From the sequence record MZ311865.1: a stretch of 64,000 nucleotides of DNA, one strand, 5' to 3'. Made by a program: the position numbers and the translations under genes. Source of the stretch: Escherichia phage vB_EcoM_LNA2. Below are positions 15,073 through 49,853 of the stretch, piece after piece. Numbering within the stretch: the first letter of the stretch is position 1; every line of letters begins with the position of its first letter. The notes beneath the pieces are model-generated. The model saw only the letters and a list, made by a program, of their open reading frames with translations, ran no database searches and was not told the DNA's origin.

Positions 15073-15441
15073 TTATGCAACTTTAATCCAATTGTCTAAA
15101 TTTAAAACACCTTTGGCTTTCATTTTTTCGATCAGGCTATCTGCTGTAATGCGTCCATTTTGATACCATGTAACATCTTCAGAGTAACCAGTTTCTTCGT
15201 CAACATATGTTTCTGAACGAATTTTACCGGTAATAATAGTTTTTAATTCGTATGTGTCACCTGTGAAAAAGTTTGCTAACACAATTTTCCAAGAGAAATC
15301 ATCTGAAGGACCTTCAGGGGTCATACAACCTACGAACTCAAATTGCTCTTTGTATAACATCCACCGGAATTCTTTAATTTCGATAGCTTTATAACCGCCG
15401 TGGTCTTTACATTTGATGTATGAGTTCAGATTGATTTTCAT
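15073..15441 (-). CDS. hypothetical protein (30.8-like position)
   Basis: 122-aa ORF. Confidence 0.45.
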   Translation of the reverse strand: MKINLNSYIKCKDHGGYKAIEIKEFRWMLYKEQFEFVGCMTPEGPSDDFSWKIVLANFFTGDTYELKTIITGKIRSETYVDEETGYSEDVTWYQNGRITADSLIEKMKAKGVLNLDNWIKVA

Positions 15442-15512: not shown

Positions 15513-15550
15513 ATCTTTTTTTAAACTTTTTCTGCCCTAAACGCACAAAA

Positions 15551-15568
15551 GGGAGACCGAAGTCTCCC
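15551..15568 (-). terminator. UUCG-tetraloop hairpin
   Basis: GGGAGAC-cgaa-GTCTCCC on plus strand, immediately 3' of the small basic ORF. Confidence 0.55.
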
Positions 15569-15573
15569 TAAAT

Positions 15574-15753
15574 TTATGCAACAACCTTTCCAAAACGAGA
15601 AGCATCATCTCGAAGAACTGCACGTGCTCTGCGCATGATCTTCTCAACTGTTTGATTAATACGAGAGTTCGACCCACGCTTGTATCCAGCGCGTTTAGAG
15701 GTACCATCAACTTTCTTTTCAACTGCTTTCTTTGCTTTAGCTTGTTTTGCCAT
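15574..15753 (-). CDS. small basic protein, 59 aa (missed by ORF track)
   Basis: Hand translation: MAKQAKAKKAVEKKVDGTSKRAGYKRGSNSRINQTVEKIMRRARAVLRDDASRFGKVVA; Lys/Arg-rich; stop followed by terminator hairpin. Confidence 0.5.
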   Translation of the reverse strand: MAKQAKAKKAVEKKVDGTSKRAGYKRGSNSRINQTVEKIMRRARAVLRDDASRFGKVVA

Positions 15754-16021
15754 TATAAATTCTCTTTAAATGAAAATGCAGGACTTATTGACATTGCCTG
15801 CGCAAGCCCTCAAGGGGAACATAGGTTTTGGGTATTTAACGACAGGATAACCATAAACCCGTCATCATACTTACCATGACTTACACAGCTAACCTTTTGC
15901 TGACGCATGATAGTACAAAATACATTCAAGAGGTACACCGTAAAATTGTCGGGGCGGTACTTCTAAAACATAGCGATTCGCAAATCGATAATCAGACAAT
16001 TCGACGGCTCCTCGATTTAGC

Positions 16022-16270
16022 TTACTTCAGGGTAATAATAAAATGACGTACTGCTTTACGTGCGGCAGAAGCCAGAGGCTTAGCATATTTCAATTCATCT
16101 TTCTGGACCAGGATATCGCGAAGATCGGCTTGTGCTGGATTCAGATGTTTGAAATACTGTAAGATTTCGAGGGCTTCGGCTTCGACATCAATAGATGCAC
16201 CGTAATTTTCGTGGCCATTATTCCATGCATGGCGTTGCAGTTCAAGAGCGTGTTGTAATTGTTTAATCAT
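16022..16270 (-). CDS. rIII: rIII lysis-inhibition accessory protein
   Basis: 82 aa, T4 rIII length, adjacent to gene 31 as in T4. Confidence 0.75.
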   Translation of the reverse strand: MIKQLQHALELQRHAWNNGHENYGASIDVEAEALEILQYFKHLNPAQADLRDILVQKDELKYAKPLASAARKAVRHFIITLK

Positions 16271-16394
16271 TTTAAATTCTCAATTCGAGACAATATTTAG
16301 TAGCCACGTTCGTCTGAATTTCACCTTCTTTCGACAGGTCTCTCAGTTGTAGGCTACCGCTTAGAAGAGTGTTCTCTTCATATAGTTATTTATA

Positions 16395-16727
16395 TCACTT
16401 ATAAAGACACGGAATAGCTTTATAGTGGCATGTTACGAATTTCTGTTTAATTTCTTTAGGTTGTTTAAGTCCCAAAGCCACAAATGGATGTGGAACATTT
16501 CGAATTTGTCCAACTGGTATTGGAGTCAAATCACCGACTTCAACAAAACCTTCAGGAACATCAGGACCTACAGAATGAACTACACATAGTTCAGGAACTT
16601 CACCTTGAACACGTTTACCAATCACAAGTCCTGATTCTGTAACTTCTTCATCACCTGCTTGAGCTGGTTCAGAAACCAGAATGACATATTCACCAACAGC
16701 ACGAATTGGGAGTTGTACTTCAGACAT
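16395..16727 (-). CDS. 31: co-chaperonin gp31 (GroES-like)
   Basis: 110 aa; sequence matches T4 gp31 as I recall it ([34 protein letters not shown]...). Confidence 0.85.
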
Positions 16728-48536: not shown

Positions 48537-48540
48537 ATTT

Positions 48541-48681
48541 TCACCATATTAATGAACGAATATCCATTATAACATCTGAAATGAAAAGCACTACTTGGAT
48601 TAGTCCAAACATCACACCGTAGTACAGAACCGTAAGCAACAACAAGAGCCCGAAGGCTCCTGCTAAAATTTTCTTAATCAT
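48541..48681 (-). CDS. small hydrophobic membrane peptide, 46 aa (missed by ORF track; T4 ac position)
   Basis: Hand translation: MIKKILAGAFGLLLLLTVLYYGVMFGLIQVVLFISDVIMDIRSLIW; TAATG overlap with the upstream peptide ORF. Confidence 0.45.
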   Translation of the reverse strand: MIKKILAGAFGLLLLLTVLYYGVMFGLIQVVLFISDVIMDIRSLIW

Positions 48682-48827
48682 TACTCGCCTTTTAACACGT
48701 TAAGAAGAGCTAAGACCGCTAAGGTACCTTGTGATACGGCCTGTTGAAATACTGTTGTTTCGCCTGTAACTAAAGTGCTAACGAATAAAAATGTCCAACA
48801 CAGCAATGCAATAATCCATGCTATCAT
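48681..48827 (-). CDS. small hydrophobic membrane peptide, 48 aa (missed by ORF track)
   Basis: Hand translation: MIAWIIALLCWTFYSFSTLVTGETTVFQQAVSQGTLAVLALLNVLKGE; RBS GAGGT upstream. Confidence 0.45.
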   Translation of the reverse strand: MIAWIIALLCWTFLFVSTLVTGETTVFQQAVSQGTLAVLALLNVLKGE

Positions 48828-48879
48828 TTTAATTACCTCAAAAATAAATTAAAGGCCCAACTTAATAGGCCTGTATAAA

Positions 48880-49603: not shown

Positions 49604-49631
49604 TTTGTGTTCCTCATGTTTCAGTAGGACT

Positions 49632-49661
49632 ACTATACCATAATCCTACCTTGTTGTAAAC
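49632..49661 (-). promoter_or_regulatory. early-type promoter cassette
   Basis: Minus-strand GTTTAC-18nt-TATAGT with GTAGGA/TCCTAC stem. Confidence 0.5.
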
Positions 49662-49853
49662 AATTAAATTACATTAAAATATGTTAAAGCCAACCATGTT
49701 CCAGTGAACGAACATGCAATGTAAAAACCCGTATCACAAATTGTTCTTAGTACAATAAGAAGTGCAATTTTCATAAGTACCTCAACACAATTGAAAATAT
49801 TATACAAATCATTGGGATACTAAGCAACCATATTCCTATCCACATTTTAGAGC

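What the first reader, a model, noticed from the sequence alone, without database searches (positions are those of the whole stretch)
15754..16021. Unusually long (~270 bp) non-coding gap between rIII and the small basic ORF
In a genome where most genes abut or overlap, this interval has no ORF longer than about 30 codons on either strand and contains GC-rich patches (e.g. GCCTGCGCAAGCCCTCAAGGGG) capable of forming local structure. It could encode a small RNA or hold a structured regulatory or replication-related element.
Basis: seen in the sequence. Interest (0 to 1): 0.4.

Follow-up and report, generated by a model that had tools for sequence, protein, structure and literature searches.

The report
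Conserved structured RNA spacer upstream of 30.9
The 268-base gap between the phage genes rIII and 30.9 is not empty spacer but a conserved, folded stretch of RNA (a long hairpin, a pseudoknot and smaller hairpins) that T4 itself and its relatives share, that matches no family in the Rfam catalogue of RNA families, and whose job is still unknown.

Summary
Window 15754-16021 is exactly the spacer between the rIII stop codon and the 30.9 start codon, both on the minus strand, in a Mosigvirus (T4-like) genome. The claim of no ORF above about 30 codons is not literally true: mechanical ORFs of 36-56 codons exist, but none is conserved.

The spacer is present in T4 (244 bp, unannotated) and in 54 of 56 distinct related rIII-30.9 loci. 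Where it aligns, it is better conserved than rIII. On the transcribed strand it forms covarying RNA modules:
- a long irregular hairpin (16013-15930);
- a branched hairpin (15911-15873);
- an H-type pseudoknot (15867-15821), found in nearly all relatives and single-copy in the window;
- a mini-hairpin and a final hairpin just upstream of a weakly sequestered ribosome-binding site.

Close relatives swap, gain or lose modules, including a ~150-nt four-helix RNA that this window lacks. There are no Rfam hits, no E. coli similarity and no conserved promoter.

Most likely it is a cis-acting structured intercistronic leader that controls processing, stability and translation of 30.9, perhaps through a bound protein. 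A processed trans-acting RNA is a serious rival. That RNA structure is under selection is well supported; the function is inferred.

The parts
15754..16021 (-). Whole rIII-30.9 spacer (268 nt), transcribed on the minus strand as part of the rIII/30.9 transcript
   Evidence: Flanking ORFs. Homologous spacers of 120-416 bp in 54 of 56 distinct related loci. 87-97% identity to relatives, against 81-85% for rIII.
15930..16013 (-). Domain 1: a long irregular hairpin. Helices: GAGG 16013-16010 / CCUC 15933-15930; CCGU 16007-16004 / ACGG 15941-15938; AAUUGUC 16001-15995 / GACAAUU 15950-15944. It encloses hairpin A.
   Evidence: the count of structure pairs on A4: 98.6% of cells paired, 5 pairs with changes on both sides, slid controls 0-1. 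Recovered independently by RNAalifold. G-U to A-C ratio 15:4 favours the sense strand.
15971..15990 (-). Hairpin A at the tip of domain 1: UAUCGAUU, loop UGCG, AAUCGCUA. It is followed by UAUGUUUUAG.
   Evidence: Pair 32-45 is U-A in 13 sequences and C-G in 3. Pair 31-46 is A-U in 13 and U-G in 2.
16008..16011 (-). GGAG tetranucleotide (core motif of the T4 RegB endonuclease), partly buried in the basal helix of domain 1
   Evidence: Sequence. RegB consensus GGAGRAYARAA and protection by secondary structure from PMC3014915. The downstream context here (CCGUCGA) does not fit that consensus.
15917..15944 (-). Weak early-promoter-like match TTTACG-N16-TATTTT. Its -35 part overlaps the 3' strands of the domain 1 helices.
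   Evidence: My own scan. It falls below the threshold of the sigma-70 scan. It is degenerate in T4 and absent in most lineages.
15873..15911 (-). Module C: branched hairpin. Outer stem AUCAUG 15911-15906 / CAUGGU 15878-15873; inner stem CAGC 15902-15899 / GCUG 15889-15886; loop AAAAGGUUA.
   Evidence: Compensatory variants CACG/CGUG and CAGA/UCUG in relatives. T4 lacks it. A ~150-nt module E replaces it at the same site in L007, L018 and L019. The same 27 nt sit inside another hairpin in L062.
15821..15867 (-). Module B: H-type pseudoknot. P1 is GACGGG 15863-15858 / CCUGUC 15846-15841. P2 is (AU)GGUU 15854-15849 / AACC(U)AU 15827-15821. Loop GGUUAUC is conserved, and loop 3 is the A-rich GUUAAAUACCCAA.
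   Evidence: Covariation test on 27 distinct sequences: 81.4% paired, score 0.352 against 0.143 shuffled (0/500), 4 doubly changed pairs in each helix. The covariance model hits 15814-15869 (-) at 70 bits, E 2e-15, the only significant hit in 64 kb. One copy per related locus. In this window P2 has only 4 contiguous pairs.
15807..15817 (-). Module H: mini-hairpin CCCC-UUGA-GGG, part of the conserved GUNCCC..GGGCUUG motif
   Evidence: Present in most lineages, at different positions. The stem is invariant, so there is no covariation evidence.
15778..15801 (-). Module T: last hairpin GCAGG (15801-15797) / CCUGC (15782-15778), followed by AUUUUCAUUU
   Evidence: The stem at the homologous position varies among lineages but stays complementary: GGGAGC/GCUCCC, GAACUGG/CCAGUUC, GGCUCUAUG/CAUAGAGCU, GAGAGGU/ACCUCUC, GAAAGGU/ACCUUUC. 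In T4-type sequences an alternative pairing GGGCUUG/UAAGUCC is the minimum-energy fold.
15760..15776 (-). Weak hairpin UUUUC (15776-15772) / GAGAA (15764-15760) that would occlude the 30.9 Shine-Dalgarno region. The AUG is at 15753-15751.
   Evidence: Predicted in this window and, as CUCC..GGAAG or CCUC..GAGG, in most other lineages. Prediction only.
15574..15753 (-). Gene 30.9: 59-aa, very basic protein, the gene served by the spacer
   Evidence: 100% identical to the Mosigvirus protein and 96% to T4 gp30.9. Restricted to T4-like phages, no Pfam family, PHROG 1427 of unknown function. AlphaFold2 gives a basic low-confidence N-terminal half plus a helix at residues 30-54, mean pLDDT 66.
15547..15568 (-). 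Terminator hairpin GGGAGAC-UUCG-GUCUCCC plus UUUU, directly after 30.9. It closes the rIII-spacer-30.9 unit.
   Evidence: Sequence. The homologous site is annotated as a terminator in PhAPEC2 and KAW3E185. The simple scan did not flag it.
16022..16270 (-). rIII (lysis inhibition accessory protein), the upstream gene

Best explanation
The spacer is a conserved, modular, structured RNA segment of the rIII-30.9 transcript that acts in cis.

Shown:
- It is transcribed-strand RNA structure under purifying selection.
- It consists of a long irregular hairpin, a branched hairpin, an H-type pseudoknot with a conserved loop and an A-rich third loop, a mini-hairpin, and a final hairpin that abuts the 30.9 ribosome-binding site.
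- The pseudoknot plus the final hairpin form the universal core upstream of canonical 30.9 genes.

Inferred:
- Transcripts from the rIII promoters run through the spacer.
- The stacked structures keep about 270 untranslated nucleotides from being attacked or terminated, and set the processing and decay boundaries between the rIII and 30.9 messages.
- The last hairpin, with its U-rich tail and the weak anti-Shine-Dalgarno pairing, limits how much 30.9 is made.
- The invariant unpaired nucleotides of the pseudoknot (GGUUAUC, CGUUAAAU) are a recognition site for a protein. The small basic gp30.9 is the most economical candidate, giving autogenous control as for T4 gp32 or ribosomal-protein leaders.
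For: - Conservation: the gap exists in T4 and in 770 phage records. Aligned gap positions are 87-97% identical, while rIII is 81-85% identical and 64-76% at third codon positions.
- Structure: the pseudoknot shows covariation in both helices. Domain 1 is 98.6% paired with 5 compensated pairs. RNAalifold gives sense -48.2 against antisense -33.2 kcal/mol. G-U pairs favour the sense strand.
- Association with 30.9: the pseudoknot is single-copy and present in 54 of 56 distinct rIII-30.9 spacers. It is absent where 30.9 is missing or highly divergent. Those divergent 30.9-like genes have a 9-bp gap or their own clear early promoter (L031, L070, L091).
- The last hairpin always sits directly before the ribosome-binding site, with complementary but different stems in different lineages.
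- No promoter is conserved across lineages, so 30.9 must largely be read through from upstream. A strong terminator follows 30.9.
- gp30.9 is a basic, partly disordered peptide with one long helix, compatible with nucleic-acid binding but not diagnostic.
Against: - The distance from the pseudoknot to the start codon varies from about 77 to 353 nt, and other modules can lie between them. This is hard to reconcile with a simple operator or riboswitch acting on the ribosome-binding site.
- Modules are exchanged, gained or lost between very close relatives. That pattern suits autonomous units or accessory functions more than one integrated leader.
- There is no experimental transcript, processing or binding data for this region in any paper I could read.
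- Folding energy of the single sequence is ordinary.
- In this window the second pseudoknot helix has only 4 contiguous pairs, and the last hairpin only 5, with a competing fold.
- The role of gp30.9 is pure inference.
Confidence: 0.45

Rival explanations
1. The spacer is the gene for one or more stable non-coding RNAs, or for the RNA part of a ribonucleoprotein. These would be cut out of the rIII-30.9 transcript and act in trans, for example by titrating a host RNA-binding protein or nuclease, or a defence system. The exchangeable modules would be alternative functional cassettes.
For: - Modules keep their structure and loop sequences whatever their order or their distance from 30.9.
- Close relatives differ by whole cassettes: C against the ~150-nt module E, and G present or absent.
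- Module E is a four-helix junction with 21 compensated pairs, far more elaborate than a leader needs.
- Loop sequences are nearly invariant.
- Nothing similar exists in Rfam or in E. coli.
Against: - No conserved promoter or clear terminator delimits an independent RNA.
- The elements are always in the same locus and orientation, directly upstream of canonical 30.9, one per genome.
- No reported stable T4 RNA maps here. From my own knowledge, only the tRNAs and the species 1 and 2 RNAs of the tRNA region are known.
Confidence: 0.3
2. The conserved sequences are DNA-level regulatory cassettes of the PeSL type: a terminator stem-loop plus an early promoter. Such cassettes end the rIII unit, restart transcription for 30.9, and mediate recombinational shuffling.
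For: - Hairpin A is followed by a U-rich run. About 40 nt downstream lies TTTACG-N16-TATTTT, close to the T4/PST PeSL promoter consensus TTTACW-N17-TAYWAT (PMC4122927).
- The locus is mosaic between relatives.
- Distant 30.9-like genes do have a clear early promoter (L070, L091).
Against: - The -35-like bases are the 3' strand of covarying helices. Substitutions that weaken the -35 (TTTACG to TTTATG) are matched by changes on the partner strand (CCGU to CCAU).
- The promoter match is degenerate in T4 and absent in most lineages and in the 162-bp spacers.
- It does not explain the pseudoknot, or modules C, H and T.
- The elements are single-copy, unlike PeSLs.
- The terminator scan finds nothing in the gap.
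Confidence: 0.12
3. The gap holds a decayed or unannotated small protein-coding gene.
For: - Mechanical ORFs of 36-56 codons exist.
- Some GenBank records annotate a 26-37-aa ORF, or an N-terminally extended 30.9, here.
Against: - No ORF keeps its frame across relatives; 1-, 2-, 5- and 6-nt indels are tolerated. The longest ORF differs in strand and frame between genomes.
- Substitutions are compensatory in helices rather than confined to third codon positions.
- The extended T4 30.9 frame is closed by TAA five codons upstream of the start in this window.
Confidence: 0.03
4. It is a DNA element, such as a replication origin, a recombination hotspot or a packaging signal, that uses hairpins in single-stranded DNA.
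For: Inverted repeats would also form in DNA, and the locus is recombinationally mosaic.
Against: - The pairing is strand-asymmetric: G-U on the sense strand would be A-C on the other, and the sense strand is 15 kcal/mol better.
- From my own knowledge, the known T4 origins lie elsewhere.
Confidence: 0.03

Closest known systems
T4 gene 32 mRNA leader pseudoknot (autogenous translational operator)
   Same: Both are H-type pseudoknots in the 5' untranslated region of a T4-type phage gene, conserved among relatives. Both are candidates for binding a basic nucleic-acid-binding phage protein that is encoded just downstream.
   Different: The gene, sequence and geometry differ: here loop 3 is a 13-15-nt A-rich stretch and there is a conserved GGUUAUC loop. 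The pseudoknot lies at a variable distance (77-353 nt) from the start codon, with structured modules in between rather than an unstructured A/U-rich tract. No binding protein is known.
Ribosomal-protein and other autoregulatory mRNA leaders
   Same: Both have a conserved structured leader upstream of a small basic protein gene, with the ribosome-binding site next to the last hairpin.
   Different: There is no evidence that gp30.9 binds RNA, and no mimicry target is known. The gap has no similarity to E. coli sequences.
RNase III processing hairpins between phage T7 early genes
   Same: Domain 1 is a long irregular intercistronic hairpin of about 15 lower-stem pairs with small internal loops. 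Cutting it would leave protective hairpins on both messages.
   Different: Cleavage is untested, T4 is not known to depend on RNase III here, and there is no sequence similarity.
PeSL promoter-terminator cassettes of T4-type phages (PMC2839356, PMC4122927)
   Same: Both are conserved intergenic motifs in T4-like genomes, linked to modular shuffling between close relatives. A stem-loop followed by a TTTAC-type -35 is present.
   Different: PeSLs are multicopy and defined by a working early promoter. Here the elements are single-copy, the promoter match is weak and not conserved, and the conservation follows RNA pairing.
Small H-type pseudoknot aptamers (preQ1-I, SAM-II classes)
   Same: The topology is the same (P1, short loop, P2, A-rich loop 3 after P1) and the size is about 45-50 nt.
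   Different: There is no Rfam hit even at E up to 10. No adjacent expression platform exists in lineages where other modules intervene. No metabolic link to the downstream gene is known.
Catalogue of about 8,500 candidate structured RNAs from IMG/VR (PMC10690425)
   Same: It used the same kind of evidence (covariation in phage intergenic regions) and the same source collection. It may already contain one or more of these modules.
   Different: I could not check. The supplementary models are not held, and the text mentions no T4 rIII/30.9 element.

Membership tests
Any Rfam 15 family | Covariance-model match at or near the gathering score | tested here: not met
   No match in the gap at E up to 10. 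No family reaches its gathering score anywhere in the window. No match at E up to 1 in 8 related loci carrying larger versions of the spacer.
preQ1-I riboswitch | Match to RF00522 and an aptamer immediately followed by its expression platform | tested here: not met
   No Rfam hit. The pseudoknot lies 77-353 nt from the start codon, with other modules in between in several lineages.
H-type RNA pseudoknot (structural class) | Two helices, with the loop of the first pairing with sequence 3' of it, both supported by covariation | tested here: met
   P1 is 89% paired and P2 75% paired, each with 4 pairs changed on both sides. 0/500 shuffles reach the covariation score, and all slid controls are lower.
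T4 gene 32-type autogenous operator | The pseudoknot is bound by the protein encoded downstream, which represses its own translation | not testable with these tools
   Only the arrangement (pseudoknot upstream of a basic protein gene) is seen. The gp30.9 model is low-confidence and non-diagnostic.
PeSL cassette | Stem-loop followed by an early promoter matching TTTACW-N17-TAYWAT | tested here: not met
   The best match is TTTACG-N16-TATTTT. It is degenerate in T4 and absent in most lineages (consensus from PMC4122927).
PeSL cassette | Many copies per genome, flanking variable ORFs | tested here: not met
   The pseudoknot model finds one copy in 64 kb and one per related locus. Module E occurs once per genome.
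Intrinsic terminator | G+C-rich hairpin followed directly by a run of U | tested here: inconclusive
   The scan finds none in the gap. Hairpin A (A+U-rich, tail UAUGUUUUAG) and hairpin T (5 bp, tail AUUUUCAUUU) are weak candidates. In L062 and L069 the homologous T hairpin has a good UUUUAUU tail.
Protein-coding gene | Reading frame conserved among relatives | tested here: not met
   Frames are broken by 1-, 2-, 5- and 6-nt indels, and the longest ORFs differ in frame and strand.
tRNA / tmRNA | ARAGORN detection | tested here: not met
   No tRNA or tmRNA gene in the window.

The most novel reading that the evidence does not exclude
T4-like phages carry, between rIII and 30.9, a locus of exchangeable structured RNA cassettes. 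These include a universal pseudoknot plus optional units such as the ~150-nt four-helix module E. They would be released as stable non-coding RNA, or assembled with the basic gp30.9 into a small ribonucleoprotein, and would act in trans on the host, for example as a decoy for a host RNA-binding protein, nuclease or defence system. This would be a new class of phage RNA, present in T4 itself.
Probability: 0.25. Interest if true: 0.8.

Novelty: new member of a known kind. Interest (0 to 1): 0.6.

Why it matters
T4 is the best-studied virulent phage, yet this 244-268-bp spacer is unannotated in its reference records, and none of the papers I could read describes an element in it.

Several things follow from showing that it is a covarying pseudoknot-containing RNA, better conserved than the neighbouring lysis-inhibition gene and shared across Tequatrovirus, Mosigvirus and related genera.
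- It gives a concrete, cheap experimental target.
- It gives a first functional handle on the orphan protein gp30.9.
- It points to at least one further uncharacterised structured RNA (module E) at the same site in relatives.
- If the modules act in trans, it would add RNA cassettes to the accessory, rapidly exchanged repertoire of T4-type phages.

Tried and rejected
- Rfam searches of the region, the whole window and eight related loci found nothing. ARAGORN found nothing.
- Single-sequence folding gave a z-score near 0 on both strands, so it is uninformative.
- The sigma-70 and terminator scan found nothing in the gap. My own scan for early, MotA-type and late promoters found only a weak, non-conserved early-like match.
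- Coding hypotheses were rejected on frame conservation.
- A host origin is rejected at the sequence level: there was no blastn match in 5,426 E. coli genomes.
- gp30.9 gave no Pfam, PDB or informative PHROG match, and only a low-confidence AlphaFold model, so I ran no fold search.
- Literature searches for rIII/30.9 transcripts, T4 small RNAs and phage structured-RNA catalogues gave nothing on this spacer. Miller et al. 2003 is not held.
- A riboswitch reading of the pseudoknot was considered and set aside, because the pseudoknot's distance to the ribosome-binding site is not conserved.
- An alternative pairing GGGCUUG/UAAGUCC in the 3' part is the minimum-energy fold in T4-type sequences, but other lineages do not support it.
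- A predicted long-range helix UGAAUG/CAUUUU has no covariation.

Full report
WHAT THE WINDOW IS. The region is from a T4-like phage of the genus Mosigvirus. A 1-kb query around the finding is 98.7% identical to Escherichia phage PNJ-6 and 93-97% identical to Shf125875, JS09, HX01 and PhAPEC2. All genes here lie on the minus strand:
- gp31 at 16395-16727;
- rIII at 16022-16270;
- the spacer at 15754-16021;
- a 59-aa basic ORF at 15574-15753, which is the homologue of T4 gp30.9;
- gene 30.8 at 15073-15441.

A C(UUCG)G hairpin plus a U-run at 15568-15547 follows 30.9. The homologous site is annotated as a terminator in two relatives.

CHECK OF THE OBSERVATION. The coordinates are exact and the quoted GC-rich patch is at 15797-15818. 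The 'no ORF above about 30 codons' statement is loose. Mechanical ORFs of 36, 42 and 56 codons overlap the gap. They are not conserved: the 56-codon antisense ORF is unique to this window, and the 42-codon GTG ORF changes frame in relatives because of a 1-nt indel and loses its 5' half in T4. Some database records annotate small ORFs, or an N-terminally extended 30.9, in the spacer. In this window the 30.9 frame is closed by TAA five codons upstream of the AUG. Few other intervals of 100 bp or more in the 64-kb window escape mechanical ORFs.

THE SPACER IS ANCIENT AND CONSERVED. A blastn search with the 268 bases alone finds 770 phage records (Escherichia, Shigella, Yersinia, Salmonella, Citrobacter). 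These include T4-type genomes at about 86% identity over about 255 bp. In T4 the equivalent spacer is 244 bp (NC_000866 130541-130784) and carries no annotation in either T4 record.

I collected rIII- or 30.9-containing loci from IMG/VR and from metagenomes. This gave 56 distinct rIII-30.9 spacers. All but two are 120-416 bp long. One exception has a 9-bp gap before a very divergent 44-aa 30.9-like gene (L031). The other, L091, has a 687-bp gap containing a textbook early promoter. L070, which lacks rIII, likewise has a textbook early promoter in front of its divergent 30.9-like gene.

Where this window's spacer aligns with relatives it is 87-97% identical. rIII is 81-85% identical overall and 64-76% at third codon positions. 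In some comparisons the spacer is also better conserved than 30.9. The 115 bases nearest 30.9 are the most widely shared part.

THE CONSERVATION FOLLOWS RNA PAIRING ON THE TRANSCRIBED STRAND. Single-sequence folding is unremarkable (z about 0 on both strands), so the case rests on comparison.

(a) Domain 1 (16013-15930) has three stacked helices: GAGG/CCUC, CCGU/ACGG and AAUUGUC/GACAAUU. They enclose hairpin A (UAUCGAUU-UGCG-AAUCGCUA).
- On 16 distinct sequences, 98.6% of cells pair.
- Five pairs show changes on both sides, for example CCGU/ACGG against CCAU/AUGG, AACUGUC/GACAGUU against AAUUGUC/GACAAUU and AACUGUU/AACAGUU, and U-A against C-G in hairpin A.
- Only 7 of 500 shuffles reach that number, and slid controls give 0-1.
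- The caveat is that I derived this structure from these sequences. RNAalifold recovers it independently.

(b) Module C (15911-15873) is a branched hairpin with compensatory variants CAUG/CAUG to CACG/CGUG and CAGC/GCUG to CAGA/UCUG.

(c) Module B (15867-15821) is an H-type pseudoknot.
- P1 is GAC(g)NGG/CCN'GUC. It has variants GUC-UGG/CCAGAC, GUGG/CCAC, GUC-UAG/CUAGAC and GGCGAGG/CCUGCC.
- P2 joins the hairpin loop to the segment after a conserved A-rich loop, GUUAAAUAUCCAAAAC. Partner sets are GGUAG/CUACU, GUGAG/CUCAC, GAUGG/CCAUC, GUUGG/CCAAC, AGGUU/AACCU and CAAGGUU/AAUCUUG.
- On 27 distinct sequences, 81.4% of cells pair, against 30-52% in slid controls. The covariation score is 0.352 against 0.143±0.018 in shuffles (0/500). 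Each helix has four pairs changed on both sides.
- In this window P2 is only GGUU/AACC, extendable to six pairs with one bulge. Support for P2 here is therefore by homology.

(d) Module H (15817-15807) is a mini-hairpin with an invariant stem, so it offers no covariation evidence.

(e) Module T (15801-15778) is the last hairpin before the ribosome-binding site. Its stem differs between lineages but stays complementary: GCAGG/CCUGC, GGGAGC/GCUCCC, GAACUGG/CCAGUUC, GGCUCUAUG/CAUAGAGCU, GAGAGGU/ACCUCUC, GAAAGGU/ACCUUUC and GGCGA/UCGCC. It is followed by a U-rich or CUCC-containing stretch that can pair weakly with the Shine-Dalgarno region: UUUUC/GAGAA here, CUCC/GGAAG or CCUC/GAGG elsewhere.

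The strand is the sense strand. The RNAalifold consensus energy is -48.2 kcal/mol for the sense strand against -33.2 for the antisense strand, on the same 17 sequences. In domain 1, G-U pairs outnumber A-C by 15 to 4.

MODULAR MOSAIC. The modules occur in different orders and combinations: A-C-B-H-T here, G-A-B-H-T in T4, B-G-E-H-T, E-B-H-T, H-B-T and others.

Very close relatives differ by whole cassettes. At the exact site of module C, phages L007, L018 and L019 carry module E. This is a ~150-nt multi-helix junction with a GNRA hairpin. RNAalifold predicts 44 pairs for it, 21 of them with compensatory changes. Module E occurs once per genome in 19 IMG/VR contigs, all about 170-kb T4-like genomes. 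It is absent from this window and has no Rfam match.

Further small hairpins with conserved loops (G: UACCUUAAGU; K: UGUACG) also covary. A covariance model of the pseudoknot finds exactly one significant hit in the 64-kb window (15814-15869, 70 bits, E 2e-15; next best E 0.7). It finds one per related locus, and none in loci that lack a canonical 30.9. The pseudoknot and hairpin T are the universal core. The distance from the pseudoknot to the AUG ranges from about 77 to 353 nt.

WHAT IT IS NOT.
- It matches no Rfam family and is not a tRNA.
- It is not host-derived at the sequence level.
- It is not coding.
- It is not a conserved promoter. The only promoter-like site is TTTACG-N16-TATTTT (15944-15917). 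This is below the threshold of the standard scan, degenerate in T4, and absent in most lineages and in the 162-bp versions of the spacer. Its -35 bases are the 3' strands of covarying helices, and a -35-weakening C-to-T change is matched by G-to-A on the partner strand. There are no late (TATAAATA) or MotA-type sites.
- PeSL promoter-terminator cassettes (PMC4122927) are the nearest DNA-level concept. They are multicopy and promoter-defined, and neither feature holds here.

THE DOWNSTREAM GENE. gp30.9 is confined to T4-like phages of enterobacteria. It has no Pfam or PDB relative and belongs to a PHROG of unknown function. The AlphaFold2 model has mean pLDDT 66. It shows a Lys-rich, low-confidence N-terminal half, including the invariant SKRAGYKR segment, and a helix at residues 30-54. 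This is compatible with nucleic-acid binding but proves nothing.

MECHANISM. Shown: a transcribed-strand RNA with several covarying structures, under stronger constraint than the neighbouring gene, tied to canonical 30.9 genes, single-copy, with the last hairpin abutting the ribosome-binding site.

Inferred: rIII in T4 is reported to be served by early, middle and late promoters (PMC9409239). No conserved promoter lies in the spacer, and a strong terminator follows 30.9. So the spacer is most simply part of an rIII-spacer-30.9 transcript.

My preferred reading (0.45) is a cis-acting structured leader. The stacked structures would shield a long untranslated stretch and define processing and decay boundaries. 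Domain 1 resembles an RNase III-type intercistronic hairpin and buries a GGAG motif. Hairpin T plus the anti-Shine-Dalgarno pairing would throttle 30.9. The invariant unpaired bases of the pseudoknot would be a protein site, perhaps for gp30.9 itself.

The main rival (0.30) is that the modules are released as stable RNA, or form a ribonucleoprotein acting in trans. The position-independence and cassette exchange of the modules, and the elaborate module E, fit this better. The absence of delimiting signals and the strict linkage to 30.9 fit it worse. A PeSL-like DNA cassette (0.12), a hidden gene (0.03) and a DNA hairpin element (0.03) are poorly supported.

NOVELTY AND LIMITS. I found no description of this element in the reference T4 records, in Rfam 15 or in the papers I could read. 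I could not read Miller et al. 2003, the 1990s Nivinskas-lab papers on this region, or the supplementary models of the IMG/VR structured-RNA catalogue. Prior mention therefore cannot be excluded.

The compensatory counts come from about 60 distinct sequences that are phylogenetically related. The alignments of the pseudoknot's 3' strand are imperfect, and that lowers rather than raises the paired fraction. I rate it a new member of a known kind (a structured phage mRNA leader with a pseudoknot) and score interest at 0.6. RNA structure under selection is well supported (about 0.85); the specific function is not.

Noticed in passing
L007:1743-2142 (also L018, L019, L021-L028, L049-L051, L059, L066, L068, L071, L102, L108); absent from the window: Module E is a ~150-nt RNA with an outer stem, three internal helices or hairpins including a GNRA-capped one, and invariant stretches GGCAAGUGCAUGC and AACGGUGUGCAACAGAU. 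RNAalifold predicts 44 pairs, 21 of them with compensatory changes. It has no Rfam match. It occurs once per genome in 19 T4-like IMG/VR contigs. In close relatives it sits exactly where this window has module C.
   Followed up: partly
window 15792-15794 to 15753-15755 (minus strand): An AUG in the loop of hairpin T opens a 13-codon upstream ORF (MSISPAFSFKENL). Its UAA stop overlaps the 30.9 AUG (UAAUG). In T4 one extra A puts the same AUG in frame with 30.9, and the PST record annotates it that way. In L015-L017 and L020 the codon is ACG, so the ORF is not conserved.
   Followed up: partly
window 15547-15568 (minus strand): GGGAGAC-UUCG-GUCUCCC plus UUUU lies directly after 30.9. It is a C(UUCG)G-loop terminator, annotated as a terminator in PhAPEC2 and KAW3E185. 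The simple terminator scan missed it.
   Followed up: partly
window 16271-16394: The 124-bp spacer between gene 31 and rIII is also free of ORFs. On the minus strand it carries the T4 late-promoter motif TATAAATA at 16394-16387, just after the gene 31 stop.
   Followed up: no
GenBank records matched (e.g. MZ868638, PP658200, OR352942) and UniRef entry P0017: Several records name one of the genes under the match '1,4-alpha-glucan (glycogen) branching enzyme, GH-13-type'. P0017 (68 aa, 89% identical to gp30.9) shows that this name is applied to gp30.9 homologues, so it is evidently an annotation-pipeline artefact. The old UniProt entry 'Uncharacterized 11.1 kDa protein in Gp30-rIII intergenic region' (97 aa, P0005) extends the ORF into the spacer.
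   Followed up: partly
L070:1405-1494 and L091 (about 100 nt upstream of its 30.9-like gene): Distant phages with divergent 30.9-like genes lack the RNA modules. Instead they have a textbook early promoter just upstream: GTTTAC-N17-TATTAT in L070 and GTTTACA-N17-TATAAT in L091.
   Followed up: no
window 48537-48879 and 49604-49853: Two further stretches of 343 and 250 bp contain no ORF of 50 codons or more on either strand. Neither holds a tRNA or an Rfam family. I did not examine them.
   Followed up: no
window 15849-15855 and 15890-15896 (minus strand): The pseudoknot loop (GGUUAUCCUGUCGUUAA) and the loop and 3' side of module C (GGUUAGCUGUGUAA; GGUUAUCUGUCUAA in relatives) share a motif, GGUUA(U/G)C..UGU..UAA. 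Module C may therefore be a diverged duplicate of the pseudoknot hairpin.
   Followed up: no
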